A stretch of DNA of 64,000 nt from sequence record MN850639.1; one strand, given 5' to 3'. The DNA comes from Escherichia phage radambza. The position numbers and the translations under genes are program-made. The notes beneath the pieces are model-generated. The model did no database searches, was not told where the DNA came from, and saw only the letters and a program-made list of their open reading frames with translations. Positions 1-32,464 of this stretch are shown here, piece by piece (positions within the stretch are counted from its first letter, which is position 1; each line of letters starts with the position of its first letter).

Positions 1-3359
<3,359 letters not shown>

Positions 3360-3360
<1 letters not shown>

Positions 3361-13015: not shown

Positions 13016-14617
13016 TCAACGTCTAAGCCCCTCATATGGGTTTCCTCTCACTAAATCTGTGTGAGCACCCATTGATGGTGGCTTGAATAATTTAACTTCG
13101 TTAAGACTGTTGAAAGCATCACTGGTAGCATCCACTTGGTCATCTTTAGTTTTACCGTCACCACAAAAGCCTTCAAGTTCTTGAAAGTAAGCTTCATTCC
13201 AACTACCTCTCAAGACTTTTACAAGTCCAGCTTCAGAAGCAGCAGAAAATCCCGCAAAGCGGGTAACTTTATCTTTATTTGTTGGTTTGGCTCTTGCTCG
13301 ATAACCTTTCTCGGCAAGTTTCCTGATGAGGGATGTTGCGTAGGATTTACCAGCAGCGCCTGGGTCTTGAGGGATAAAAATACCAGTTCGCTTACCGTCA
13401 CTTTCAGCAGTCAAATTAATTTGTGTTTCGACTCCAGAGGGTCTATCTCTAAATCTTACTACATCAATGATATAATAGCAACCGTCTTTTTTAGATTTAC
13501 CCATCTTAACACCTGCTGTCCAGTCTGGATTAGGGTTAACCTCAGATGGTAAAGTTGCTGCTAAGTCCCATGCTCTAACATCAAATACATCTTCTGGGAG
13601 TGAATCAACAATCTCACACCATTGTCTTTGCCAATAGTTTGAACCTTCTGCACGAGCTTTCCAGTTACCGAAACGAAGCCTTGCAACGTTTACAGGGGTG
13701 TTGTTTTCCAACTTACCACGGTACTTAGGCTCTAAGAAGTCAAGGATTGGGTTATCATCAATCGTACCAGAGATGAAGGTGTATGTTTGAGGAATCTCAA
13801 GAGGGAACATTTCAAGAATCTTGTCTCTCTCCCAATCAGAAACCATCACACCATCATTCATTACATACCAACGAATACGACCACACTTTTCAGGGTCTGG
13901 ATAACCTTCTTCATCTAAGAATGGCTCTACCCAATCATAAATAAAATGGTCTCTGTCTGGGTTCATGGAAATTTTCATGTATGAATCACCTTCAGCACCA
14001 GAACGAAGACGTGTTTGTAGGTATGAAATCTGTGAAGCAGAGAAGTGTGTACCTTCGTCAAAGTAAATAGCTGAGTATTCAATACCCTGATGACCTTCAG
14101 CGTGCTTTTCAAGTTCTAGATAGGTAAACTTGATAGTCGCCCCAGAAGGGAATGTGATAGTCATCTTCTGCTCGTGAGGAACCCCACCAAACTTACCAAA
14201 TAGTTTCTTTGCAGCAGGCCATAAACCACCTTGTAACTGTGTTGTATTTCGACGGAAATATACAGCATTATAGTTAGGGTCTTCAATAAACCTTAAAGAG
14301 TCCATTAACAATGCAGCAGTTTTACCAGCACCAGCAGCACCACCATAGAGAACCAAGTCAGCATTAGTATTTAAAAAGACCTCTTGAGAACCCGGCTGAG
14401 GGGCTACATAATTCTTATCAGTCATCAATTTAAAGATAAGGCGAACTTGGTCTGGTGTGTATCTTAATAAAGTCAGAATTTGAGTTGGAAGGAATTTAGA
14501 GGGGTCTTTACCGAATGATTTAATAATTTCTTTTACTTCATCAGAAAGCCCCAACTCTCCAGCTAGGACTTTCCTAACATCTTCCACTCGCTTCTGCTTA
14601 ACAGCATTTAAGTCCAT
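13016..14617 (-). CDS. terminase large subunit
   Basis: Walker A LYGGAAGAGKT; nuclease-domain-like C-terminal half; ORF-track TTG start trimmed to ATG at 14615-14617 with GGAGG SD. Confidence 0.9.
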   Translation of the reverse strand: MDLNAVKQKRVEDVRKVLAGELGLSDEVKEIIKSFGKDPSKFLPTQILTLLRYTPDQVRLIFKLMTDKNYVAPQPGSQEVFLNTNADLVLYGGAAGAGKTAALLMDSLRFIEDPNYNAVYFRRNTTQLQGGLWPAAKKLFGKFGGVPHEQKMTITFPSGATIKFTYLELEKHAEGHQGIEYSAIYFDEGTHFSASQISYLQTRLRSGAEGDSYMKISMNPDRDHFIYDWVEPFLDEEGYPDPEKCGRIRWYVMNDGVMVSDWERDKILEMFPLEIPQTYTFISGTIDDNPILDFLEPKYRGKLENNTPVNVARLRFGNWKARAEGSNYWQRQWCEIVDSLPEDVFDVRAWDLAATLPSEVNPNPDWTAGVKMGKSKKDGCYYIIDVVRFRDRPSGVETQINLTAESDGKRTGIFIPQDPGAAGKSYATSLIRKLAEKGYRARAKPTNKDKVTRFAGFSAASEAGLVKVLRGSWNEAYFQELEGFCGDGKTKDDQVDATSDAFNSLNEVKLFKPPSMGAHTDLVRGNPYEGLRR

Positions 14618-14638
14618 TAAGCGCCTCCGCAAATAGAA

Positions 14639-14839
14639 TTATTCAGAGTCTGTAGCAGTCTCTTCTTTCTTAACTTCGAACTTTGCATCAACGGCATCAA
14701 GAAGTGCATCCATAGATGCTTCTTTAATATCAATACCTGTTGCTACAGACAGTCTGTCTGCAATTGCCATGATAGTATTCTGCATAAATTCTAGCTTTTT
14801 GTTAGCTTCATAAAGTTCTTTATAAACGGTCTCACTCAT
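14639..14839 (-). CDS. small hypothetical protein upstream of terminase
   Basis: 66-aa ORF with GGAG SD, follows a minus-strand terminator hairpin. Confidence 0.45.
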   Translation of the reverse strand: MSETVYKELYEANKKLEFMQNTIMAIADRLSVATGIDIKEASMDALLDAVDAKFEVKKEETATDSE

Positions 14840-15064: not shown

Positions 15065-15140
15065 TGGAGAATCCGAAGGGACTCGAACCCTTATAAACCT
15101 GTTTTGCAGACAGGCACATAGCCATTTCTGTCACGGATTC
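15065..15140 (-). tRNA. tRNA-Cys (anticodon GCA)
   Basis: Manual cloverleaf: 7-bp acceptor GAATCCG/CGGATTC, T-arm with TTCGAGT loop, anticodon loop cTGCAaa, encoded CCA. Confidence 0.7.
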
Positions 15141-15144
15141 AAAT

Positions 15145-15237
15145 TGGAGGAAGATACCAGACTTGAACTGGTACACCGATTTCTCAGCTACTGGCAGTTT
15201 AGCAAACTGCTCCCTTACCTTTTAGGGTTAATCTTCC
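15145..15237 (-). tRNA. tRNA-Ser (anticodon GCT), type II
   Basis: Perfect acceptor GGAAGAT/ATCTTCC, anticodon stem GCAGT/ACTGC loop ttGCTaa, long variable arm, encoded CCA. Confidence 0.7.
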
Positions 15238-15238
15238 A

Positions 15239-15973
15239 TTATTTCTGTAATGCGCTCTTCATTTCTGGTGTTGCAATAGTGTCAATTACACCAGTTTTAC
15301 AGGCATCATCAAACCAGTCTGGTAAGATACCTGCTAAGAACCCATTGATATTCGTTTTAAGGTACTCTGCAATAAGGGCAGCTTCTTCTTCAATCATCTG
15401 CACAACTTCATCTGCATAAGCTGTAATCTTTGAGATACCTTCATTAATCTTACTAACAGCTTGGTTAGCTAAATCAGAAATAGTATCAAGACCTTTGTCA
15501 ATAGCGTCTTGTAAATCACTTAATACATCATTAACACCGTCTAGTGCACTGTTAATCGTATCAATAGCTTTTTGACCATACTCTGTAGCAACACCCATAA
15601 TACCACTAAATGGTGTACAGCCAACTTGTTCACCTGCTGCACTCATAACATTAGAATAACCTTTTGCTACCTGCATACGTGATGAAAACTCATCAATGGA
15701 CTTTTGACCGTAATCTGTCAGTGTTTTGGTGGTTGATGTAGTGCTTGTTAGACTCGTGGTAAAGCTGTTAAGCAGAACTGTTGTAAGTCCAGCAGCAACA
15801 AGCTTATCCTTTACTGTAGGGTCTGATACAGAGCTAATAGAGCTTACAAGTGATGTAGAGGCAGCTACGGTTCCACCGAGAACTGCTGCACCAGTAATAA
15901 GGGGGTTAGAAAACCCTTTACCAGTTTTTAAGAGATTAAAAATCTCCTTACCTTGTTCTGTCATCTCTTTCAT
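15239..15973 (-). CDS. hypothetical protein embedded in tRNA cluster
   Basis: ORF-track GTG start at 16036 overlaps tRNA-Phe; trimmed to ATG at 15971-15973 (MKEMTEQGKEIF...), about 244 aa. Confidence 0.5.
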   Translation of the reverse strand: MKEMTEQGKEIFNLLKTGKGFSNPLITGAAVLGGTVAASTSLVSSISSVSDPTVKDKLVAAGLTTVLLNSFTTSLTSTTSTTKTLTDYGQKSIDEFSSRMQVAKGYSNVMSAAGEQVGCTPFSGIMGVATEYGQKAIDTINSALDGVNDVLSDLQDAIDKGLDTISDLANQAVSKINEGISKITAYADEVVQMIEEEAALIAEYLKTNINGFLAGILPDWFDDACKTGVIDTIATPEMKSALQK

Positions 15974-15989
15974 TAAGCACCTTTGAAAT

Positions 15990-16066
15990 TGGTAGTCCAG
16001 TGGGATTTGAACCCTCTTCTCATGTTTTTCAGACACGCGCTTTAACCATATAAGCTACTTGGACTA
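15990..16066 (-). tRNA. tRNA-Phe (anticodon GAA)
   Basis: Acceptor TAGTCCA/TGGACTA, anticodon stem CGTGT/ACATG loop ctGAAaa, T-loop TTCAAAT; 3' end register ambiguous by one nt. Confidence 0.6.
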
Positions 16067-16071
16067 TAAAT

Positions 16072-16147
16072 TGGGGTGACCTACGGGATTTGAACCCGTA
16101 TAGACCATGTTCACAGCATGGGTCATTACCATTTATGATAAGGCCAC
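16072..16147 (-). tRNA. tRNA-His (anticodon GTG)
   Basis: Acceptor GTGGCCT/AGGTCAC, anticodon stem CCATG/CATGG loop ctGTGaa, perfect T-arm, encoded CCA. Confidence 0.7.
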
Positions 16148-16178
16148 ATTTAAGGACTCTCGTAAGAATCCTTAGAAG

Positions 16179-16254
16179 TGGCAGCGGCATAAGGATTTGA
16201 ACCTTAATAAGACAGCTTCAGAGACTGCTGCATTGCCAGTTATGCTATACCACT
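16179..16254 (-). tRNA. tRNA-Gln (anticodon CTG)
   Basis: 76 nt; acceptor with two G-U pairs; anticodon loop ctCTGaa; T-arm TAAGG/TTCAAAT/CCTTA; encoded CCA. Confidence 0.6.
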
Positions 16255-16259
16255 AAATT

Positions 16260-16338
16260 TGGTACTCCATATCGGATTCGAACCGATACATAACACAGAT
16301 TTTAAGTCTGGCCTCTCTGCCAATTGGAGTAATGGAGC
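16260..16338 (-). tRNA. tRNA with Leu-type anticodon TAA, short variable arm, 5' end ambiguous (16330 or 16338)
   Basis: Perfect T-arm ATCGG/TTCGAAT/CCGAT, discriminator A, encoded CCA; anticodon stem only 4 bp (CAGA/TCTG), loop cTTAAaa. Confidence 0.45.
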
Positions 16339-16340
16339 AT

Positions 16341-16416
16341 TGGCGGGGGATGTTGGAATTGAACCAACTTCTTCGATTTCAAAGACCGAGGTTTTAACCT
16401 TGTAAACTAATCCCCT
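16341..16416 (-). tRNA. tRNA-Gln (anticodon TTG), 1:72 mismatch
   Basis: T-arm GTTGG/TTCAATT/CCAAC, anticodon stem TCGGT/ATCGA loop ctTTGaa, encoded CCA; first acceptor pair A-C. Confidence 0.5.
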
Positions 16417-16424
16417 TTAAATCT

Positions 16425-16982
16425 TTACTTTCTCAGTGGATGAATAAAGAATGCCAACATAACTCTTTCCCTTGAGAATGCTCTTTCTTCTGGGACAACA
16501 CTTTTTAGTTTCCATCCAATATAAATTCTCCAGTAAAATTGTTTACCAAAGATTTTAATTGATGGGATAAAAGCGAATAATCCCCAAGCATTCCTGTTCC
16601 ACATTAGGAGATAACCAGTCTGATTATCTTCAGGGTTAGAACTTACGTTGATATTACCTTTCCACTTAGTAACATCTTTTACATCTCTTCCTAACACATG
16701 GTAAGAGAAGTTATAAGCTTTGTTTCTCCAGAGCCATCCAACTCTTTGCATGTAGACACCTAGTTTACCAATCCATCTAATATTAGCCCATCTTTTAACG
16801 TGACCTTCATCACCATCAATTGGGTTGTCATATGTCTCCATCCATCTGAATCCGAAAGGTAAGTGTCCTTTCTTCTCACTGTAGAATGGAACTACAAAAG
16901 GTGCTAAGATAACTGCTAAGATTGCTGCAAATGGCTCTAACAAAGCTAAGAAAATCCATGAAGCATACTTTAAGTATCTCAT
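16425..16982 (-). CDS. membrane protein (N-terminal transmembrane segment, Trp-rich), function unknown
   Basis: 185 aa, ATG start; hydrophobic N-terminus IFLALLEPFAAILAVILAPFVVPF; embedded between tRNA genes. Confidence 0.55.
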   Translation of the reverse strand: MRYLKYASWIFLALLEPFAAILAVILAPFVVPFYSEKKGHLPFGFRWMETYDNPIDGDEGHVKRWANIRWIGKLGVYMQRVGWLWRNKAYNFSYHVLGRDVKDVTKWKGNINVSSNPEDNQTGYLLMWNRNAWGLFAFIPSIKIFGKQFYWRIYIGWKLKSVVPEERAFSRERVMLAFFIHPLRK

Positions 16983-17001
16983 CTAAATAGCCTCTTAAAA
17001 T

Positions 17002-17079
17002 TGGTGTTCCAAGACGGATTCGAACCGTCACTAATACAAGGTTTGAGCTTGCATCCTCTGCCAATTGGGATACTGGAAC
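17002..17079 (-). tRNA. tRNA with Leu-type anticodon CAA, short variable arm
   Basis: Acceptor GTTCCAG/TTGGAAC, T-arm GACGG/TTCGAAT/CCGTC, anticodon stem GCAAG/CTTGT loop ctCAAac, discriminator A, encoded CCA. Confidence 0.5.
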
Positions 17080-17080
17080 A

Positions 17081-17155
17081 TGGTACTCACTAAAGGACTT
17101 GAACCTTTTTCTTCATCTTGTAAGGGTGATGTTTTACCATATAAACTAAGCGAGT
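17081..17155 (-). tRNA. tRNA-Val (anticodon TAC)
   Basis: Acceptor ACTCGCT/AGTGAGT, D-stem GTTT/AAAC, anticodon loop ctTACaa, encoded CCA. Confidence 0.6.
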
Positions 17156-17159
17156 GTGA

Positions 17160-17250
17160 AAGAGGTCTGAAGTTGTGCCGCTAACTCAACTCCGTGGAAT
17201 TTGTTACGGTCTTCAGTTGACTCAAAGCGGTCTTTCACTTGACCTCTGAA
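17160..17250 (-). ncRNA. structured non-tRNA element (candidate small RNA or processing structure), strand uncertain
   Basis: Terminal inverted repeat AGAGGTC ... GACCTCT enclosing nested stems (AGTTG/CAACT, CCGT/ACGG, GACCGC/GCGGC-like); no T-loop or anticodon arm. Confidence 0.3.
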
Positions 17251-17251
17251 T

Positions 17252-17327
17252 TGGTGCTCCCACAAGGATTCGAACCCTGATAAGTTGCTTACAAGGCAAC
17301 CGTAATAGCCAATTATACGATAGGAGC
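17252..17327 (-). tRNA. tRNA-Thr (anticodon TGT)
   Basis: Acceptor GCTCCTA/TGGGAGC, perfect anticodon stem GTTGC/GCAAC loop ctTGTaa, encoded CCA. Confidence 0.7.
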
Positions 17328-17334
17328 ATTAATT

Positions 17335-17409
17335 TGGAGCATCCAGAGGGAATCGAACCCTCAACCTCAGTTTGGAAGACTGTAATTTTCCCGTTTAAAC
17401 TATGGATGC
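17335..17409 (-). tRNA. tRNA-Gly (anticodon TCC)
   Basis: Perfect acceptor GCATCCA/TGGATGC, T-arm GAGGG/TTCGATT/CCCTC, anticodon loop ctTCCaa, encoded CCA. Confidence 0.65.
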
Positions 17410-17415
17410 ACTAAT

Positions 17416-17491
17416 TGGTGGAGAAGCAGGGAATTGAACCCTGTACTTAAGTTTGCAAAACTTATGTTTTAACCATGTAAACTACATCCCC
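17416..17491 (-). tRNA. tRNA-Ala (anticodon TGC)
   Basis: Perfect anticodon stem TAAGT/ACTTA loop ttTGCaa, T-arm CAGGG/TTCAATT/CCCTG, encoded CCA; one acceptor mismatch. Confidence 0.7.
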
Positions 17492-17497
17492 AATGTT

Positions 17498-17573
17498 TGG
17501 TACAGGTGGAGGGAATTGAACCCATCGTCTTACTGATTAAGAGTCAGCCGCATAACCATTTTGCTACACCTGC
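17498..17573 (-). tRNA. tRNA-Lys (anticodon CTT)
   Basis: Acceptor GCAGGTG/CACCTGT, anticodon stem GCTGA/TCAGT loop ctCTTaa, encoded CCA; paralogous to the tRNA at 18731-18806. Confidence 0.6.
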
Positions 17574-17580
17574 ATTAATT

Positions 17581-17657
17581 TGGTACACCTAGAGAGATTC
17601 GAACTCACACTGAGCAGATTCTAAGTCTGCTGCCTCTACCAGTTGGGCTATAGGTGC
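17581..17657 (-). tRNA. tRNA with Leu-type anticodon TAG, short variable arm
   Basis: Perfect anticodon stem GCAGA/TCTGC loop ctTAGaa, acceptor GCACCTA/TAGGTGT, discriminator A, encoded CCA; 77 nt. Confidence 0.55.
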
Positions 17658-17915
17658 ATTAAATCTTTTTAGAGAACTTCTAAGAACCTGAGCAACAAGG
17701 TTCCACAACAAGCGACTAATAACCTTAGAAGCCCTCTAAAAAGACCTAAATAGGTCTTTGCATAGTCTTGTTTAATCCGGTGACTAGAACCTTTGGAGAG
17801 CTTGATATTATCTCTTCTCCGTGACACCTACTAGGTGTTTTATCAGTGTGTACGACAATACACGAGGGATACCAAAGCAACATCCGAATGAAGCTTGGCT
17901 TTAAATCTTATTAGG

Positions 17916-18003
17916 CGGTAAGTAAAGGAGTCGAACCCTCACCGTATCTCTACAGTGGCAACTGTTTTCAAGACAGTTTGGCTACCATTAGCCGCTACCT
18001 ACC
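17916..18003 (-). tRNA. tRNA-Ser (anticodon TGA), type II, CCA not encoded
   Basis: Acceptor GGTAGGT/ACTTACC, perfect anticodon stem ACTGT/ACAGT loop ctTGAaa, long variable arm. Confidence 0.65.
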
Positions 18004-18016
18004 CCTAATAAGACTT

Positions 18017-18099
18017 TGGCATGGGACGGAGGAGTTGAACCCCTTTGAAACGGTTTTGGAGGCCGTTGCTCATGCCTTAGAGTCTTAACATCGTCCCAT
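18017..18099 (-). tRNA. tRNA-Trp-like (anticodon CCA) with enlarged D region
   Basis: Perfect acceptor ATGGGAC/GTCCCAT with encoded CCA, T-loop TTCAACT, anticodon loop ctCCAaa; 26 nt between acceptor and anticodon stem instead of about 19. Confidence 0.45.
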
Positions 18100-18242
18100 A
18101 CTATAATTCGAAGCTTACCGTATTATCTCAACACTGTAAAGCCCCTTCTCAGATTATTTACATGTTCTGGAAAACATGAGATACAGACCACCTCCTTACA
18201 CGGAGACCCGATAAGGTCGTCTAAGCAATCTGCTAACTAAAT

Positions 18243-18324
18243 TGGTCGAGGCGGCAGGACTCGAACCCGCATACTCCACTTACTCGGTTAACGGCGGTTT
18301 AGAAGACCGCTGAGATACGCCCCG
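18243..18324 (-). tRNA. tRNA-like element, atypical (anticodon-like loop TCT; no recognisable D arm; 23-nt variable region)
   Basis: Acceptor CGGGGCG/CGCCTCG, T-arm GCGGG/TTCGAGT/CCTGC, encoded CCA, perfect stem GCGGT/ACCGC with loop ctTCTaa, but only 7 nt between acceptor and that stem. Confidence 0.35.
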
Positions 18325-18572
18325 TAATTATCTTTAAAGACTCTCTTAGAAAGCCCTTAAAGATGCCCACTTTATTAATCATACCGTGGGCGAGTACGCC
18401 AAATTCTTTGATGAGGGATTGGAAGACCTCACTGGTGTTTAGCCTATCAAGCTACTGCCAGAAAAACATTGTCGTTTGCATTTATTTTAAATTTGCAAAA
18501 TAGACGCTACGCAACGAAAACTAAGGTTACTATAAAGTAGTCACATCTCAATGTCAACAACTTTATTGAAAG

Positions 18573-18647
18573 TGGTTGTAGGTGAGGGTATCGAACCCTC
18601 TTCTAACGGTTATCAGCCGTTTGCATTACCATTTATGCTAACCCACA
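18573..18647 (-). tRNA. tRNA-Ile (anticodon GAT)
   Basis: Perfect anticodon stem AACGG/CCGTT loop ctGATaa, T-arm GAGGG/TTCGATA/CCCTC, encoded CCA. Confidence 0.7.
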
Positions 18648-18649
18648 AT

Positions 18650-18726
18650 TGGAGGTTCAGGTGGGAATTGAACCCACATTCATAGGGCTTATGAAACCCT
18701 TGCATTACCTTATCTGCGACTGAACC
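18650..18726 (-). tRNA. tRNA-Met (anticodon CAT)
   Basis: Perfect acceptor GGTTCAG/CTGAACC, anticodon stem AGGGT/GCCCT (three G-C pairs) loop ttCATaa, T-arm GTGGG/TTCAATT/CCCAC, encoded CCA. Confidence 0.65.
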
Positions 18727-18730
18727 ATAT

Positions 18731-18806
18731 TGGTAGAAGTGGAGGGATTCGAACCCATCGCCTGTCAGATTAAAAGTCTGCCGCATCACCATTCTGCTAC
18801 ACTTCC
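18731..18806 (-). tRNA. tRNA-Lys (anticodon TTT)
   Basis: Acceptor GGAAGTG/CACTTCT, anticodon loop ctTTTaa, encoded CCA; paralog of 17498-17573. Confidence 0.6.
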
Positions 18807-18810
18807 ATTA

Positions 18811-18954
18811 AATTATCTTTGTAGATAAGCTACCCAGACTTGCTTAAGGTCTGTAGCGATGTGCCTTTTTGGGTTTAAATCTAGAATTTACCCTTTCACC
18901 CTTTGTGGTCGCATACTCACAGGTAAGCTTAATAACTTATCTACAAAGATAATT
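18811..18954. repeat. perfect 19-bp inverted repeat pair (18811-18829 and 18936-18954) flanking a 106-bp spacer
   Basis: AATTATCTTTGTAGATAAG and its exact reverse complement CTTATCTACAAAGATAATT; internal hairpin CAGAC-ttgcttaag-GTCTG. Confidence 0.6.
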
Positions 18955-19005
18955 ACCAGACCGTTGTTTATCATCTTAAGTGCTACCATTACACCAACTC
19001 GACAT

Positions 19006-19031
19006 CTGCCGAGTGAAGGAATCGAACCTTC
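19006..19031 (-). pseudogene. tRNA 3'-half-like fragment (T-arm plus acceptor 3' strand, no 5' partner)
   Basis: Perfect T-arm GAAGG/TTCGATT/CCTTC but no complementary acceptor 5' strand or anticodon arm within 100 nt. Confidence 0.3.
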
Positions 19032-19234
19032 GCCTTTTCTTTACCGAGAAATAGATTGTTTAAGTTTTGCTGTAAACGGTCTTCTGTAAATTTGTTGAGC
19101 CAGACCAAGTTTTAGATTTTCAAAATTAAATTGGCTTGAAATTTCATACGTTCTTGCTGTATTTGGTCTTCTGCTCCTTTAAAGAATACTCGTAAGAACT
19201 CTTTAAGGGAGGGGCTAAATAGCCCTCTCAAAAT

Positions 19235-19310
19235 TGGCGAGGTATGCGAGAATCGAACTCGCGGCTCAGGAGAGACAATCCCGTATTTTACCCATCTAAA
19301 CTAATACCCC
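19235..19310 (-). tRNA. tRNA-Asp (anticodon GTC)
   Basis: Acceptor GGGGTAT/ATACCTC, T-arm GCGAG/TTCGATT/CTCGC, anticodon loop ttGTCtc, discriminator G, encoded CCA. Confidence 0.7.
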
Positions 19311-19314
19311 AAAT

Positions 19315-19743
19315 TCATGTACCATTTCTTAGATACTTCTTCCTACGTCTTTCTGGACTATAGTTTCTTCTACTCTCAGCATTCTTAGCCAGCCTACACT
19401 CATCGCATCTACAGCCTTTAAAATAGCTATACGCAGTTCCGTGTTTAATTGTTTTATGTTTTCTTTCACTTATCTGTGCTGGTCTTGCTGCTTTCATGTT
19501 ACATTTAAGATGACTATAAGAAATATTATCTAGTGAAAAGAAAAGCTCTTTTGCATTCTCACTATGTCTCCACGGAATCTTATGCTCGATAGAGAAATCA
19601 TCCCTAGTCATTTCTTTTCCGCACTGAAAACATCTATTTTGATTTGTCTTACATATAAAATCGAATAGCAAATCTTTTACTAGTCTGTTTTGTGCAGTTC
19701 CCAAACTCATACCAAGTTGTGATTTGTATACTTCATCTCTCAT
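19315..19743 (-). CDS. HNH homing endonuclease
   Basis: CFQCGKEMTRDDFSIEHKIPWRHSEN...SHLKCN HNH motif; ORF-track start at 19836 overlaps tRNA-Tyr, trimmed to ATG at 19741-19743. Confidence 0.75.
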   Translation of the reverse strand: MRDEVYKSQLGMSLGTAQNRLVKDLLFDFICKTNQNRCFQCGKEMTRDDFSIEHKIPWRHSENAKELFFSLDNISYSHLKCNMKAARPAQISERKHKTIKHGTAYSYFKGCRCDECRLAKNAESRRNYSPERRRKKYLRNGT

Positions 19744-19765
19744 AACTAAGTATCTCGCTAAGTGT

Positions 19766-19853
19766 TGGTGTGCCGTGTAGGAGTCGAACCTACCGAGTCT
19801 CAATGACAAGGGATTTACAGTCCCCACCGCTACCATCTACGGGATAACGACAC
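19766..19853 (-). tRNA. tRNA-Tyr (anticodon GTA), type II
   Basis: Acceptor GTGTCGT/ACGGCAC, anticodon stem GGGGA/TCCCT loop ctGTAaa, long variable arm, T-arm GTAGG/TTCGACT/CCTAC, encoded CCA. Confidence 0.7.
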
Positions 19854-19864
19854 ATTTAATTTTG

Positions 19865-19938
19865 CGGTTAGTCAGGGATTCGAACCCTGTGCCATTCGCT
19901 TAACAGGCGACCGCACATACCTTATGTGCTTCCTAACC
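19865..19938 (-). tRNA. tRNA-Asn (anticodon GTT), CCA not encoded
   Basis: D-stem GCAC/GTGC, anticodon loop ctGTTaa, T-arm CAGGG/TTCGAAT/CCCTG. Confidence 0.6.
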
Positions 19939-20022
19939 ATATTTAGTATTACCAGACCGTATCTTTCAATTTTTTCCGCTAAAAATTTAATAAATGTTGC
20001 TGTAAACGGTCTTCTGTAAATT

Positions 20023-20099
20023 TGGAGGCGGGTGCAGGAGTCGAACCTGCCGATACCATGCTAATGAGACATGTGAGACGCCCTTTCTCTATACCCGCA
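20023..20099 (-). tRNA. tRNA with CAT anticodon (Met, initiator or Ile-lysidine type), unpaired 1:72
   Basis: Anticodon stem CATGT/GCATG loop ctCATta, T-arm GCAGG/TTCGACT/CCTGC, encoded CCA; first acceptor position U opposite C. Confidence 0.6.
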
Positions 20100-20190
20100 A
20101 TTCTTAATGACCAGACCAAATCTCTTCTTTGTCCGATTTACCTTCAGATGAATAAGATTAAGTTTGCTGTAATTGGTCTTCTGTCAAAAC

Positions 20191-20268
20191 TGGCGTTCCA
20201 GAAGGGATTTGAACCCTCAAATATCCACTTTGAAAGAGTGGTGACTATACCATTTTGTCTACTGGAAC
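20191..20268 (-). tRNA. tRNA-Glu (anticodon TTC)
   Basis: Perfect acceptor GTTCCAG/CTGGAAC, perfect anticodon stem CCACT/AGTGG loop ctTTCaa, encoded CCA. Confidence 0.7.
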
Positions 20269-20275
20269 ATTAATT

Positions 20276-20352
20276 TGGTCTCTGTTGGAGGACTTGAACC
20301 TCCGGCCTTACCGCCCCAAACGGAACGCTCTACCAAGCTGAGCTAAACAGAG
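20276..20352 (-). tRNA. tRNA-Pro (anticodon TGG)
   Basis: Perfect acceptor CTCTGTT/AACAGAG, D-stem GCTC/GAGC, anticodon loop ttTGGgg, T-arm GGAGG/TTCAAGT/CCTCC, encoded CCA. Confidence 0.65.
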
Positions 20353-29982: not shown

Positions 29983-30531
29983 ATGGAAAAAGATAACTTA
30001 AAAGAAGTTGAAGGTAACTACTTAGTACTTGACTGGAAGGATGTTCGGGAAGCACTCTCCGAAGAAAATCTTGACTGGTTCGAACAAATTATCTTTGCAG
30101 TACGGCATAACCGAGAAGTTGAAAATGGTAAAGAGCCACTTGAAGGAATCTTTGTAGAAAGGTCTTATCCATTCTATGAAGACACTTTGCAGAAAGTTAA
30201 GATGTACTTTAAACAGAAGAACCGTAAAGTGGTCACTATGGTATCTCTTGGTGGACAGAGTATGTCTGTGATGGAAGATATCAACCCTAAGAGACCAAGT
30301 AAGGGTGTCTGTATAAAAATCACAGGTCATGAAGAGTACATCTCAGCAAGTGATTTTAGTGTGTTCTGTAATGGTTCTGCTGTCTTTAATGGGTTTCACT
30401 ATGATATCCGAGTGTACCCAATCAAGGGAGATGATATCATGATGCAGATATTCGATAACAATAATGGGTTCACTCATTTTTACCAGACAACTAAGTCATC
30501 CTTGAAGACAGTTTTAGAAAGCCTGATTTAA
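29983..30531 (+). CDS. hypothetical protein
   Basis: ORF-track TTG start at 29938 trimmed to first ATG (MEKDNLKEVEG...). Confidence 0.5.
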   Translation: MEKDNLKEVEGNYLVLDWKDVREALSEENLDWFEQIIFAVRHNREVENGKEPLEGIFVERSYPFYEDTLQKVKMYFKQKNRKVVTMVSLGGQSMSVMEDINPKRPSKGVCIKITGHEEYISASDFSVFCNGSAVFNGFHYDIRVYPIKGDDIMMQIFDNNNGFTHFYQTTKSSLKTVLESLI

Positions 30532-30542
30532 AATATCTTAAG

Positions 30543-30572
30543 AGCCTCCTTAATTGGGGGCTTTTTAATTTT
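30543..30572 (+). terminator. rho-independent terminator ending the plus-strand operon
   Basis: AGCCTCC-ttaatt-GGGGGCT hairpin followed by TTTTTAATTTTTAT. Confidence 0.6.
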
Positions 30573-30629
30573 TATAAAATTTTATCGGTTGTTCCAACCT
30601 CTGGGTCACCATCACATGTGAATAAAATA

Positions 30630-31850
30630 TCTACCCTTCTTAACAACCTTCTTAAGCTTACTCTCTATATATAGTTATATAGTACTATATAGTATCTTAG
30701 TATCTATCTAGTGGTCTTAATAGCCCCTCTGTATAAACCTTCTAAACACTCTTCTAACAAGCCTTCTTAACAACCTATACAATCACCTTAACCATCCCTC
30801 TACACCCTCTTAGAAGCTCCTATACACCTCTTAATCTCTATGTCAGCTATGTTACCCTCTATAGGTGTTCACTAGGTATTACTAAACCTCTATATAGACT
30901 GTTTTAACAAACTTAACAGGAATATCTTTACAGACCTTATCTCACAAGGTCTAACACGGTACTAACAAGGTATCTTATAAGCCTGTTATTACCTGTATTT
31001 TTAAAAGGCTGTATAGGTAATTATTCAGAATCTTAAAATTTTTATAAAATAGGACTATCAAGTCATTTTTTAGGGTCTTTGAAGGAACTGAAAAATATCT
31101 GTAGAGGATGTATATCTGCTTGGTAGCCCTTAACAGCTCCCTTACAAGTACTTTGCAAAATTTTAAAATATCCTTAACAATCTCTTAACAGTTCTCACAT
31201 CTTCTTAACAACTCTTCAAAGGTCTTAACAGTTTCTTAACAGAACTAACAAGGGCTTAACAGTTTTCTAGGGATTGGTAACAATACCAATTAACAAGTGC
31301 TGAATAGTCTTTACAGAGGCTTAACAGATGACTAACAAGAGCTAACAAGTTAATTTTAAAGAGTTATTTTGTTAAGATAATTAACAAGTTCCTAACAAGT
31401 GTTTAATCTTTTTAACAAGCTGTTAACATGGTCACTACTCTTTTCTTATCGTTCCCTTTCCTTTCTTAGTGATTCTTTAAACATACCTCTTAAAAGCTCT
31501 GTATAGCTCTGCATAACCCCTTTTAAGTCTCTTCCTAGTATCTACAGCCCAACTATACAGACACCTCTTTATAAGGCTTTACAGAAGCTTTAAAGGCTAT
31601 GTCAAAGACTCTTACAAGGCTTTTACGTGGTCTTAACAGAGATTTAACAAGGGGCTAACAAGTTGCTAACAAGTGCCTTAAAAGCATAACTATGTAGGAT
31701 TTGTTAAGAAATTGTTAAGAAAATGTTAAGGGGGCTAGCATTTACGTAACTTTTAAGCTACTTCAAAGTAACTTTTAAGCCCCTATAACATACTTTAAGA
31801 CACTAACAAGCCCTTTTTAGTTATTCACAAGATAGCTAACGAGATGATAA
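30630..31850. repeat. iteron-like array: about 30 copies of YTAACAR, densest at 31175-31430 and 31633-31720
   Basis: Motif starts at 31175, 31186, 31206, 31226, 31237, 31246, 31257, 31278, 31291, 31322, 31333, 31343, 31382, 31393, 31413, 31424; spacings mostly 10-11 bp or multiples; inverted copies TTGTTAAG at 31691-31720. Confidence 0.6.
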
Positions 31851-31956
31851 AGCTTACACCCTTATAAGATTCTTTTAAGGCTCTGGGAAGCTCTAGGAAG
31901 GGCTTTTTAGAGTGGGTTAATATGATTGCTTAAGTTAGGTTGATAAGGCTGTTATA

Positions 31957-31986
31957 GAGCGTTTTAGAGCGTTTTAGAGCGTTTTA
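31957..31986. repeat. perfect tandem repeat, 3 x 10 bp (AGAGCGTTTT)
   Basis: agagcgtttt agagcgtttt agagcgtttt read directly. Confidence 0.8.
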
Positions 31987-32153
31987 GTGGTTGCCCTTCC
32001 CTTTCGGGTTATGGGCTTACATTTAAGGGAAAGATTAAGTTGATTTGATAAAAGGCTATAGAGTAGACTATAGAGTTATTGCTTTTTAAGGTCTGGTAAA
32101 GTTCTGACTTGTTAGGTGGGTTTTAAGATTCTGGAAAGGAATTTGATAGACGT

Positions 32154-32176
32154 AAAAAAAGCCCCATTTAAGGGGC
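32154..32176 (-). terminator. rho-independent terminator at end of the minus-strand small-gene array
   Basis: Plus AAAAAAA then GCCCC-atttaa-GGGGC; hairpin then U-run on minus strand; second hairpin GGGGCT-attt-AGCCCC at 32190-32205. Confidence 0.55.
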
Positions 32177-32215
32177 TGTAAAGGTATCTGGGGCTATTTA
32201 GCCCCGTTGCGGCGT

Positions 32216-32464
32216 TTAGTTAGTGCCTTCTTTGTCGTAGTACAGGGAGACAATTTTTTCACCCCAGTAGTGGTATGTATAACCCTCTTTGAGAGCTTCC
32301 TGTTTTGTTTCTTTCCAGAATTCATCAGAGGGGTTGTAGTCACTGATGGTCTGGCTGATAAGGCCTTTCACCATTTCAAAGGCGTTATCAGTACCTACAA
32401 GGTCAAATTTAACGTCCAGAGAGTAGAAGCCAAATTCGTTAACAGTTGCGCGGATAGTAGCCAT
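32216..32464 (-). CDS. small hypothetical protein (cassette gene 1)
   Basis: 82 aa; ATG preceded by the conserved leader. Confidence 0.55.
   Translation of the reverse strand: MATIRATVNEFGFYSLDVKFDLVGTDNAFEMVKGLISQTISDYNPSDEFWKETKQEALKEGYTYHYWGEKIVSLYYDKEGTN

What the first reader, a model, noticed from the sequence alone, without database searches (positions are those of the whole stretch)
30630..31850. About 1.2 kb of non-coding DNA packed with helically phased TAACA(A/G) iterons
Between the plus-strand operon terminator and the minus-strand array terminator there is no credible ORF, but the motif YTAACAR occurs about 30 times. In the densest block (31175-31430) sixteen copies start at spacings of 11, 20, 20, 11, 9, 11, 21, 13, 31, 11, 10, 39, 11, 20, 11 bp, i.e. 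one or more helical turns, which is how multimeric DNA-binding proteins are arrayed on one face of the helix. A second direct block (31633-31670) is followed by three inverted copies (TTGTTAAG, 31691-31720). Upstream is an AT-rich TATAG/TATATAGT stretch (30665-30710) that could serve as an unwinding element. A replication origin with iterons, a partition-like centromere, or a binding array for a phage regulator are the obvious candidates; I do not recognise the motif as a known host factor site.
Basis: seen in the sequence. Interest (0 to 1): 0.72.

Follow-up and report, generated by a model that had tools for sequence, protein, structure and literature searches.

The report
Phased TAACA repeats in phage terminal repeat
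The repeat-packed non-coding stretch is real, but it is the roughly 610-bp direct terminal repeat (the physical DNA ends) of a Felix O1-like phage, so the helically phased TAACA sites are most likely a docking array for the end-cutting and packaging machinery rather than a replication origin or centromere.

Summary
TAACAR occurs 27 times on the + strand of 30630-31850, against 1.9 +/- 1.4 in local dinucleotide shuffles. The sites are phased at 10.4-10.5 bp (p ~0.002). The YTAACA core is conserved across four Ounavirinae genera while the spacers drift.

The window is a Felixounavirus. The array sits in a 1.68-kb gap between two convergent operons. Two GenBank relatives carry exact 592- and 579-bp repeats at both record ends, and these map to window 31122-31735. 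The DTR determined experimentally for sister phage UAB_Phi87 (Bal31 plus run-off sequencing, 608 bp) maps to 31120-31727. Both DTR edges carry a TTAACA copy a few bases inside the cut, in mirror orientation.

The best reading is a cis-acting array for recognising and cutting the concatemer junction, analogous to the CCTAAAG heptamer arrays around the T7 terminal repeat. The binding protein is unknown, and no small terminase subunit is annotated in this group. A replication origin, an end-protection site and a centromere are weaker rivals.

The DTR itself is known. I found no description of the phased array. Verdict: a new member of a known kind, of moderate interest.

The parts
30540..30565 (+). 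Intrinsic-terminator-like hairpin that ends the + strand operon; left limit of the non-coding gap
   Evidence: the last + strand ORF ends at 30531
30569..30580 (+). Conserved AT-rich box TTTTTATAAAAT, copy 1
   Evidence: Occurs only twice in the 64-kb window, and both copies are in the gap. Invariant in the 8-genome alignment.
30634..30782 (+). Left-flank repeat family CCTTCT(T)AACAA; five copies, four of them consecutive at 12-bp spacing; includes three exact TAACAR
   Evidence: family D5
30666..30712 (.).
31039..31050 (+). Conserved AT-rich box TTTTTATAAAAT, copy 2, about 70 bp to the left of the DTR
31110..31121 (+). Left cut-site box GTATATCTGCTT, immediately outside or at the left DTR edge; unique in the window
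   Evidence: Invariant across three genera. Also present as GTATATCTGCTT in Erwinia phage phiEa21-4. Unique in the window.
31120..31735 (+). Direct terminal repeat (DTR) of the virion genome. Edges: 31120-31122 on the left and 31727-31735 on the right, depending on the source.
   Evidence: Exact 592- and 579-bp repeats at both ends of records PP461118 and OQ708377 map to 31122-31735. The experimentally determined UAB_Phi87 DTR (Fig S1 of PMC4837284) maps to 31120-31727. Further records start or end at these points.
31131..31429 (+). Array 1: 17 TAACA sites, all on the + strand, phased at 10.4 bp; the first copy lies 9-11 bp inside the left DTR edge
   Evidence: 13 of the 17 sites are kept in at least 15 of 17 genomes
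31430..31633 (.). Central ~200 bp of the DTR without TAACA sites. It is conserved and carries CTCT(G)TATAG-type motifs. The 210-bp step across it is 20 x 10.5 bp, so it keeps array 2 in phase with array 1.
31634..31672 (+). Array 2: four tandem 11-bp units, YTAACARGNNN; copy number varies among relatives
   Evidence: (Felix O1 has 3 copies)
31673..31700 (.). Conserved unique core (CTTAAAAGCATAACTATGTAGGA) between the converging direct and inverted units
   Evidence: GCATAACTATGT is invariant in three genera
31701..31730 (-). Inverted array: three 11-bp units TTGTTAAGAAA (TTAACA on the - strand), ending 5 bp or less from the right DTR edge
   Evidence: I4: 31127-31159 against 31700-31732, 33 nt, 73% complementary
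31727..31739 (+). Right cut-site box (TGTT)AAGGGGGCTAGC; GGGGGCTA is unique in the window
31736..32159 (.). Right flank carrying a different family of short T-rich repeats (CTTTTAAG, GCGTTTTAGA x3.7) and an invariant GC-rich block at 31989-32016
32160..32177 (-). Terminator-like hairpin that ends the - strand operon; right limit of the gap
   Evidence: the first - strand ORF is at 32216-32464
13016..14632 (-). Large terminase subunit, the enzyme presumed to cut at the DTR edges; it lies 16.5 kb away
   Evidence: phrog_979, E = 8e-234. No small subunit is annotated in relatives.

Best explanation
The 1.68-kb gap is the concatemer-junction region of a Felix O1-like (Ounavirinae) myophage. Window ~31120-31735 is the short direct terminal repeat that is present once per genome unit in replicating concatemers and at both ends of packaged DNA. 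This much is shown by homology to determined ends.

What follows is inferred. The roughly 21 YTAACA(R) sites in the repeat lie on one face of the helix (10.4-10.5-bp register) in direct orientation, and three copies are flipped at the right edge. I propose that they form a cooperative binding platform for the recognition component of the packaging machinery: TerL with an unidentified small partner, or TerL alone. Binding would wrap or bend the repeat and mark it as the unique junction. It would also place the nuclease at the two conserved edge boxes (GTATATCTGC|TTGGTAGCCC-TTAACA and TGTTAA-GGGGGC|TAGC). These boxes form an imperfect inverted pair, so each new DNA end starts a few bases before an inward-reading TTAACA. 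The repeat is then duplicated during cutting, as in T7-type packaging.
For: Shown:
- The window is a Felixounavirus.
- Exact terminal duplications in two relatives' records map to 31122-31735.
- The UAB_Phi87 DTR, determined by Bal31 digestion and run-off sequencing, maps to 31120-31727 and is 608 bp long.
- PhageTerm reports DTRs of 581 and 613 bp in other members.
- At least eight further records start or end at the same two points.
- In Kolesnikvirus the exact 444-bp DTR of phage M7 covers the homologous TTAACA array and has the same edge boxes.
- The motif is enriched about 14-fold over local shuffles and phased at the helical repeat.
- Column entropy is 0.14 in motif columns against 0.44 in spacer columns across 17 genomes.
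- Cross-genus identity is 0.74-0.90 in the YTAACA core against 0.5-0.65 in the flanks.
- Each genome keeps 19-22 copies in the aligned 31050-31800 segment (DTR plus ~70-bp flanks), although 11-bp units are gained and lost.
- The two DTR edges form an inverted repeat (I4), and the edge boxes are unique in the window.

Analogy checked on sequence: in T7, 16 of the 22 + strand CCTAAAG heptamers lie within about 400 bp of the ends, in one orientation.

Established knowledge that I recall but did not check here: terminase recognition sites are typically clusters of short repeats beside the cut, for example lambda cosB R sites, the P1 pac hexamers and the SPP1 pacL/pacR boxes.
Against: - No protein is shown to bind the sites.
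- No small terminase subunit is recognisable in this phage group. The 66-aa ORF upstream of TerL is acidic and does not look like a DNA binder.
- The ten ORFs next to the gap have no Pfam domain.
- Most of array 1 lies 50-300 bp from either cut, which is further than needed merely to position a nuclease.
- As far as I recall, the function of the analogous T7 heptamer arrays is itself unproven.
- Location in the DTR is equally compatible with other end-related roles, such as replication priming, recombination or annealing of ends, end protection, or ejection.
- Aligners tend to stack repeated motifs on top of one another, which inflates the apparent conservation of the motif columns.
- The ends of this particular phage were not measured.
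Confidence: 0.5

Rival explanations
1. The array is a replication origin, or a priming/initiator-loading site, placed in the terminal repeat. A phage or host initiator oligomerises on the phased iterons and melts one of the adjacent AT-rich tracts (TATATAG tandem at 30666-30712; TTTTTATAAAAT boxes).
For: Phased direct repeats next to AT-rich conserved boxes in a non-coding region. The whole gap, not only the DTR, is conserved across genera. T7 has the phiOL promoter right next to its left repeat array; I recall, without checking, that phiOL acts as a secondary origin.
Against: - The repeat core is 6-7 bp in an 11-bp unit, not the 17-22 bp typical of iterons.
- No initiator-like gene lies nearby: no Pfam domain in ten neighbouring ORFs.
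- Only two isolated one-mismatch DnaA-like boxes occur, both outside the arrays.
- The arrays are bracketed exactly by the two end-forming cuts and are mirrored there, which an origin does not require.
- Both flanking operons transcribe into the region.
Confidence: 0.15
2. The array is a telomere-like end-binding site. A virion-borne or early protein coats both DNA ends through the inward-reading TTAACA sites. This would protect the ends from RecBCD, hold the last-packaged end in the portal or tail, or promote end-to-end pairing for concatemer formation.
For: Both ends of the mature DNA begin 6-11 nt before an inward-reading TTAACA. The 82-aa gene next to the gap (Felix O1 gp23) was detected in virions according to PMC3185647.
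Against: No evidence links gp23 or any other protein to DNA: there is no Pfam or PDB similarity. Most sites are in direct, not mirrored, orientation, so the two ends are not equivalent beyond about 35 bp.
Confidence: 0.1
3. The array is a binding platform for a transcription regulator or a decoy for a host factor. TTAACA differs from the -35 hexamer TTGACA by one base, and it resembles the half-sites of OmpR/PhoB-type winged-helix regulators, which bind head-to-tail at 10-11-bp spacing.
For: The 11-bp tandem head-to-tail units. Several promoter-like matches use TTAACA as the -35 element.
Against: Promoter-like sites number 8 against 6.2 +/- 3.0 in shuffles. There is no Rfam family. No gene lies downstream in either direction, because both neighbouring operons end at the gap. 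The resemblance to host-factor sites is recalled from memory and is inexact.
Confidence: 0.07
4. The array is a partition centromere of the parC/ParR or tubC/TubR type, which segregates or positions phage DNA.
For: Arrays of about 11-bp units in helical phase resemble parC of plasmid R1 (recalled, not checked here).
Against: The group is described as strictly virulent. No partition ATPase/GTPase or adaptor is evident among the neighbours. The array coincides with the DTR.
Confidence: 0.02
5. The array is a functionless by-product of replication slippage in non-coding DNA between two terminators.
For: Copy number of the 11-bp units varies among close relatives. Tandem-repeat structure is present.
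Against: The core motif, the number of sites (19-22) and their register are kept across genera with about 75% overall identity, and partly in the Erwinia phages, while the spacers diverge. Phasing also holds for non-tandem sites and across a 210-bp gap.
Confidence: 0.04

Closest known systems
Concatemer junction of phage T7 (160-bp terminal repeat with CCTAAAG heptamer arrays in and beside it)
   Same: Both have a short exact DTR and lie in a non-coding region. Both carry a short oriented motif strongly concentrated at the junction: in T7, 16 of the 22 + strand copies lie within about 400 bp of the ends. Both have conserved unique boxes at the repeat edge.
   Different: The sequences are unrelated and the motif differs. 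T7 copies are spaced in multiples of 13 bp and lie mostly outside the repeat, whereas here they are phased at 10.4-10.5 bp and lie mostly inside it, with mirrored copies at one edge. T7 has a known small terminase subunit (gp18) and uses its own RNA polymerase and promoters near the junction; neither is evident here.
Terminase recognition sites made of clustered short repeats (P1 pac hexamers TGATCA/G; SPP1 pacL/pacR boxes; lambda cosB R sites). Recalled from the literature, not checked here.
   Same: Several short protein-binding repeats at about helical spacing flank the terminase cut. Bending or wrapping of the DNA is part of recognition.
   Different: Those systems have 3-7 sites and an identified TerS, and they produce headful or cohesive ends. 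Here there are about 21-25 sites, no identified TerS, and two cuts about 610 bp apart that generate an exact DTR.
Iteron-type replication origins (lambda ori, P1 oriR, pSC101)
   Same: Direct repeats in helical register beside AT-rich DNA.
   Different: The unit is 11 bp with a 6-7-bp core, against 17-22 bp in those origins. No adjacent initiator gene was found. The array is bracketed by the genome-end cut sites.
Type II/III partition centromeres (parC-ParR, tubC-TubR). Recalled, not checked here.
   Same: Many about 11-bp units form a one-faced array that is thought to be coated by a small dimeric DNA-binding protein.
   Different: No partition genes were found, the lifestyle is virulent, and the location is terminal.
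Herpesvirus terminal 'a' sequence (short direct-repeat arrays between the pac1 and pac2 cleavage signals). Recalled, not checked here.
   Same: A terminal repeat of a few hundred bp consists largely of short direct repeats bracketed by unique cleavage and packaging signals, with variable copy number.
   Different: It is a eukaryotic virus with unrelated sequence and proteins.

Membership tests
Short direct terminal repeat (DTR) of Ounavirinae genomes | The same sequence is present at both physical ends of virion DNA | tested here: met
   Met by homology. The experimentally determined UAB_Phi87 DTR maps to 31120-31727. Exact duplications at both ends of two records map to 31122-31735. The virion DNA of this particular phage was not measured.
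Short direct terminal repeat (DTR) of Ounavirinae genomes | Doubled read coverage and sharp read-start peaks at the two edges in this phage's own sequencing data | not testable with these tools
   No reads are available for the window.
Short direct terminal repeat (DTR) of Ounavirinae genomes | Large terminase of the clade that makes short exact DTRs | tested here: inconclusive
   TerL at 13016-14632 matches phrog_979. I built no terminase tree. PMC4837284 reports that the Felix O1-type TerL groups accordingly.
T7-type junction repeat arrays (by analogy, not homology) | An oriented short motif concentrated in and around the terminal repeat | tested here: met
   for the window; for T7.
T7-type junction repeat arrays (by analogy, not homology) | Sequence homology to the T7 junction or a shared motif | tested here: not met
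   The motif is YTAACAR against CCTAAAG, and the spacing is 10.5 against 13 bp. This is an analogy only.
TerS-bound pac/cos recognition site | An identifiable small terminase subunit that binds the repeats | tested here: not met
   No TerS is annotated in Felix O1 or in the Pharokka-annotated relative H12. Neighbouring ORFs have no Pfam hits. Binding itself cannot be tested here.
TerS-bound pac/cos recognition site | The repeats lie adjacent to the terminase cut sites | tested here: met
   The first TTAACA lies 9-11 nt inside the left edge. The inverted copies end 5 nt or less from the right edge.
Iteron replication origin | An adjacent initiator (Rep/O-type) gene and iterons of about 17-22 bp | tested here: not met
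   The unit is 11 bp with a 6-7-bp core. No domain was found in ten neighbouring ORFs.
Iteron replication origin | An AT-rich unwinding element and DnaA boxes beside the iterons | tested here: inconclusive
   AT-rich conserved tracts are present. Only two isolated one-mismatch DnaA-like boxes occur, both away from the arrays.
Iteron replication origin | The fragment supports replication initiation | not testable with these tools
   This needs marker-frequency or plasmid assays.
Partition centromere (parC/parS/tubC) | A cognate partition NTPase and adaptor genes in the element | tested here: not met
   None was found among the neighbours or in 32 kb of an annotated relative. The rest of the genome was not scanned exhaustively.

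The most novel reading that the evidence does not exclude
The phased YTAACA array would be the core of a previously undescribed end-recognition system for myophages that lack a small terminase subunit. An unidentified small phage protein, or TerL itself, would polymerise head-to-tail along one face of about 300 bp of the terminal repeat. This filament would define both cut sites 610 bp apart. It might also act as a telomere-like cap or a replication-priming site on the injected DNA. That would make the DTR a multifunctional nucleoprotein organelle rather than a passive repeat.
Probability: 0.2. Interest if true: 0.65.

Novelty: new member of a known kind. Interest (0 to 1): 0.4.

Why it matters
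Felix O1-like phages are classic Salmonella typing phages and are widely used in biocontrol and therapy cocktails. How they recognise and cut their genome ends is unknown, and no small terminase subunit has been identified in the group.

Placing a conserved, helically phased array of about 20 sites exactly inside the experimentally defined terminal repeat gives a concrete cis element to test. It could be mutated, footprinted, or used as bait to find the recognition protein. It also gives a candidate packaging signal for engineering transducing particles or synthetic genomes.

There is a practical consequence too. More than 250 deposited Ounavirinae genomes are opened at arbitrary points. The edge boxes GTATATCTGCTT and GGGGGCTA would allow their true ends to be annotated by sequence alone.

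Tried and rejected
- Rfam scan of 30400-32400 at E <= 1. It returned only a sub-threshold Phe-leader match over the + strand terminator, so no known RNA family is present.
- Promoter scan. It found 8 sigma-70-like sites against 6.2 +/- 3.0 in shuffles, which gives no support for a promoter cluster.
- DnaA boxes. Two isolated one-mismatch matches lie outside the arrays.
- Search for the binding protein. Pfam on ten ORFs flanking the gap found nothing. PHROGs returned only families of unknown function for the flanking ORFs. PDB sequence searches of the two immediately adjacent ORFs found nothing below E = 0.3. The 66-aa ORF upstream of TerL is acidic and not evidently DNA-binding. A Pharokka-annotated relative has no TerS.
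- AA/TT dinucleotide periodicity as a proxy for intrinsic curvature. It showed no clear peak near 10.5 bp in the DTR, so the phasing belongs to the motif and not to A-tracts.
- IMG/VR scan for three TAACAR sites at 11-bp spacing. Dense arrays occurred only on contigs that were either confirmed Ounavirinae or of matching size (84-90 kb). The other dense hits were a simple (TAACAATA)-type satellite (L041), an unrelated GATAACAATAC iteron cluster (L093), and tandem repeats in giant-virus contigs that were not examined further. The motif array is therefore not a general phage feature.
- Literature. I searched for any description of the array, or of an origin or ncRNA in this gap. The Felix O1 genome paper lists other repeats but not these. 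The UAB_Phi87 paper prints the DTR sequence without commenting on its repeats.
- GC skew. It follows gene orientation and does not inform on an origin.
- Heavy protein-homology and structure tools were not used. The finding is a DNA element, and no specific candidate protein justified the cost.
Full report
**What the window is.** The region 30540-32200 matches 256 phage records. Nearly all are Felix O1-like myophages (Felixounavirus, 88-91% identity for the best), and 195 of them cover it almost fully. In annotated relatives it is the gap between two convergent gene blocks, Felix O1 ORF24 and ORF23. In the window the last + strand ORF ends at 30531 and the first - strand ORF starts at 32216. 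Nothing longer than 35 aa lies between them. Terminator-like hairpins sit at 30540-30565 (+) and 32177-32160 (-). The non-coding unit is therefore 30532-32215, 1684 bp with 34.7% G+C, a little wider than the finding.

**Checking the observation.** TAACAR is not enriched over the whole window: 135 observed against 122 +/- 11 in shuffles. The copies are strongly concentrated, however. The gap holds 34, of which 27 are on the + strand. That is 20.2 per kb, against 1.62 per kb elsewhere. One thousand dinucleotide-preserving shuffles of 30630-31850 itself give 1.9 +/- 1.4 on the + strand, with a maximum of 8, against 27 observed. The top k-mers of the gap all belong to one family: TAACAAG 13 times, CTTAACA 12 times, CTAACAAG 9 times.

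A period scan from 5 to 25 bp peaks at 10.4 bp for the 17 sites at 31131-31424. This gives p = 0.002 within 9.5-11.5 bp and p = 0.004 for any period. With the four sites 210 bp further on, the peak is at 10.5 bp with p < 0.001. So enrichment, strand bias and helical phasing are all real. The only correction is that the inverted copies lie at 31701-31730, not 31691-31720.

**The key context: this is the direct terminal repeat.** Many GenBank records of relatives begin or end inside the gap at two recurring points about 610 bp apart. Two records carry an exact duplication at both ends: PP461118 (592 bp) and OQ708377 (579 bp). Both duplications map to window 31122-31735.

The published experimental work agrees. 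For the sister phage UAB_Phi87, Bal31 digestion and run-off sequencing defined a 608-bp direct terminal repeat (PMC4837284). The sequence printed in its Figure S1 is the reverse complement of window 31120 (TTGGTAGCCCTTAACA...) to 31727 (...AAGAAAATGTT), which also spans 608 bp. PhageTerm studies report 581 bp and 613 bp in other members (PMC8303462; PMC6454146), and short DTRs in the Erwinia-infecting genus.

The dense block, the second block and the inverted copies together fill the terminal repeat. The edges are uncertain by about 2 nt on the left and 8 nt on the right, depending on the source.

**Anatomy, in window orientation.**
- *Left flank (30532-31119).* It holds a 12-bp repeat family CCTTCT(T)AACAA, a TATATAG tandem, three more TAACAR sites and two copies of TTTTTATAAAAT. 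That 12-mer occurs nowhere else in the 64 kb.
- *Left edge.* The box GTATATCTGCTT (31110-31121) is unique in the window and invariant across three genera. It abuts the left DTR edge.
- *Inside the DTR.* Array 1 has 17 + strand TAACA sites at 31131-31429, and the first lies 9-11 nt from the edge. A 200-bp conserved stretch without sites follows. Array 2 has four tandem 11-bp units at 31634-31672. Next come a conserved unique core containing GCATAACTATGT and three inverted 11-bp units TTGTTAAGAAA at 31701-31730. The right edge box is AAGGGGGC|TAGC.
- *Symmetry.* The two DTR edges form an imperfect inverted repeat: 31127-31159 against 31700-31732, 33 nt, 73% complementary. Each mature DNA end therefore starts a few bases before an inward-reading TTAACA.
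- *Right flank (31736-32159).* It uses different T-rich repeats, CTTTTAAG and GCGTTTTAGA x3.7.

**Conservation.** An 8-genome alignment spanning Felixounavirus, Mooglevirus and Suspvirus shows that the whole gap is conserved. The TAACA sites stay in place while the spacers vary, and 11-bp units come and go.
- Cross-genus identity is 0.74-0.90 at positions -1 to +4 (YTAACA) against 0.5-0.65 in the flanking positions. A permutation test gives p = 0.026.
- With 17 distinct sequences, column entropy is 0.14 in motif columns against 0.44 in spacers (Mann-Whitney p ~1e-9). Thirteen of the 17 array-1 sites are kept in at least 15 of 17 genomes. Every genome has 19-22 + strand copies in the aligned 31050-31800 segment.
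- A caveat applies: aligners tend to stack repeats, which inflates this contrast.
- Erwinia phage phiEa21-4 (Kolesnikvirus) is too diverged for general DNA alignment, yet it has the same layout. GTATATCTGCTT is followed by a TTAACA array, then inverted TGTTAA copies, then ...AAAGTGGC|TAACC. The exact 444-bp DTR of phage M7 covers precisely that interval. Phasing is weaker there (p ~0.03-0.09).
- A pattern scan of IMG/VR found dense arrays only on contigs that were either confirmed Ounavirinae or of matching size (84-90 kb). The other dense hits were a satellite-like repeat, an unrelated iteron cluster and tandem repeats in giant-virus contigs that I did not examine.

**Most likely mechanism.** It is established for DTR phages that replication yields concatemers with one repeat copy per junction, and that terminase must recognise that junction, cut at both repeat edges and duplicate the repeat. 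It is shown here that the array coincides with that repeat, that it abuts both cuts in mirrored fashion, that it is one-faced over about 300 bp and again 210 bp (20 turns) further on, and that it is under constraint.

I infer that the sites are a cooperative docking platform for the recognition component of the packaging machinery, which marks the junction and positions the nuclease at the edge boxes. TerL lies at 13016-14632. No small subunit is annotated in Felix O1 or in a Pharokka-annotated relative, so the reader of the motif is unknown.

I put about 0.95 on the statement that this is the DTR and junction region, and about 0.5 on the statement that the array serves end recognition and cutting.

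**Rivals.**
- *Iteron origin in the repeat (0.15).* It fits the phasing and the AT-rich boxes. Against it: there is no initiator gene, the units are short, there are no DnaA boxes in the arrays, and an origin would not explain the mirrored edges.
- *Telomere-like end-binding role (0.1).* It fits the inward-reading terminal copies. No protein is linked to the sites.
- *Regulator or decoy array (0.07).* It is not supported by the promoter or Rfam scans or by gene orientation.
- *Centromere (0.02).* No partition genes were found.
- *Pure slippage junk (0.04).* It is contradicted by the conservation.

**Comparison with known systems.** The closest analogue I could check on sequence is T7. There, 16 of the 22 + strand CCTAAAG heptamers lie within about 400 bp of the ends, all in one orientation, in and beside the 160-bp repeat. 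The resemblance is functional and architectural, not homologous. The motif, the spacing (13 bp against 10.5 bp) and the placement (mostly outside against mostly inside the repeat) all differ.

Clustered-repeat terminase sites (P1 pac, SPP1 pacL/R, lambda cosB), parC-type centromeres and the herpesvirus 'a' sequence are further analogies. I recall these from the literature and did not test them here.

**Novelty and score.** The DTR of this genus is already known and its sequence has even been printed. I found no paper that notes the phased array, its conservation or its mirrored relation to the cut sites. It is a new member of a known kind of element, namely repeat arrays at the concatemer junction of DTR phages. 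Interest is moderate (0.4). The finding does not overturn anything, but it makes the open question of how TerS-less Felix O1-type phages recognise their ends directly testable.

Noticed in passing
window 30569-30580 and 31039-31050: The 12-mer TTTTTATAAAAT occurs exactly twice in the 64-kb window, both times in the gap and in the same orientation. The two copies are 470 bp apart and are invariant in eight genomes of three genera. It could be a promoter-like or protein-binding box; its function is unknown.
   Followed up: partly
window 31989-32016: An invariant GC-rich block, GGTTGCCCTTCCCTTTCGGGTTATGGGC, lies in the right flank just after a 10-bp tandem (GTTTTAGAGC x3.7 at 31951-31987). It contains a small CCC-TTTC-GGG hairpin and is conserved across three genera.
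   Followed up: no
L013 (Erwinia phage phiEa21-4) 3024-3321: The right flank of the Kolesnikvirus DTR carries 12 copies of TTAGAA(G), often 10-12 bp apart. The window's right flank uses a different motif (CTTTTAAG / TTTTAGAG). The flanking arrays therefore change motif between genera while the TTAACA array inside the DTR is kept.
   Followed up: partly
window 31110-31121; T7 (L019) 161-167: The left edge box GTATATCTGCTT contains ATCTGCTT. T7 has its only + strand ATCTGTT at 161-167, immediately after its 160-bp repeat, and I recall that site as the T7 RNA polymerase pause signal at the concatemer junction. The match is probably coincidental, since no T7-like polymerase is known in Felix O1-type phages.
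   Followed up: partly
window 14639-14839 (-): A 66-aa acidic ORF that looks helical lies immediately upstream of the large terminase gene. It is also annotated as a hypothetical protein in relative H12. It sits where a small terminase subunit would be expected but does not look like a DNA binder.
   Followed up: partly
window 15065-20352 (-): A cluster of 24 tRNA genes lies on the - strand, between the terminase/structural block and the + strand late block.
   Followed up: no
L093 (IMGVR_UViG_3300046167_000553) ~2790-3360: An unrelated 64.7-kb viral contig has its own non-coding array of about 12 GATAACAATAC-type repeats, with inverted GGTTGTTATCGG copies upstream. This looks like a classical iteron origin. 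The contig has no similarity to the window.
   Followed up: partly
window 32216-32464 (-): The 82-aa gene directly to the right of the gap is the homologue of Felix O1 gp23, which PMC3185647 lists among the proteins detected in virions. It has no Pfam or PDB similarity.
   Followed up: partly
GenBank records of relatives: Most of the more than 250 deposited Ounavirinae genomes are opened at arbitrary points, with the DTR internal and collapsed to one copy. Several annotate short spurious ORFs across the array, for example H12 CDS0001 and CDS0002 and ESh19.
   Followed up: no
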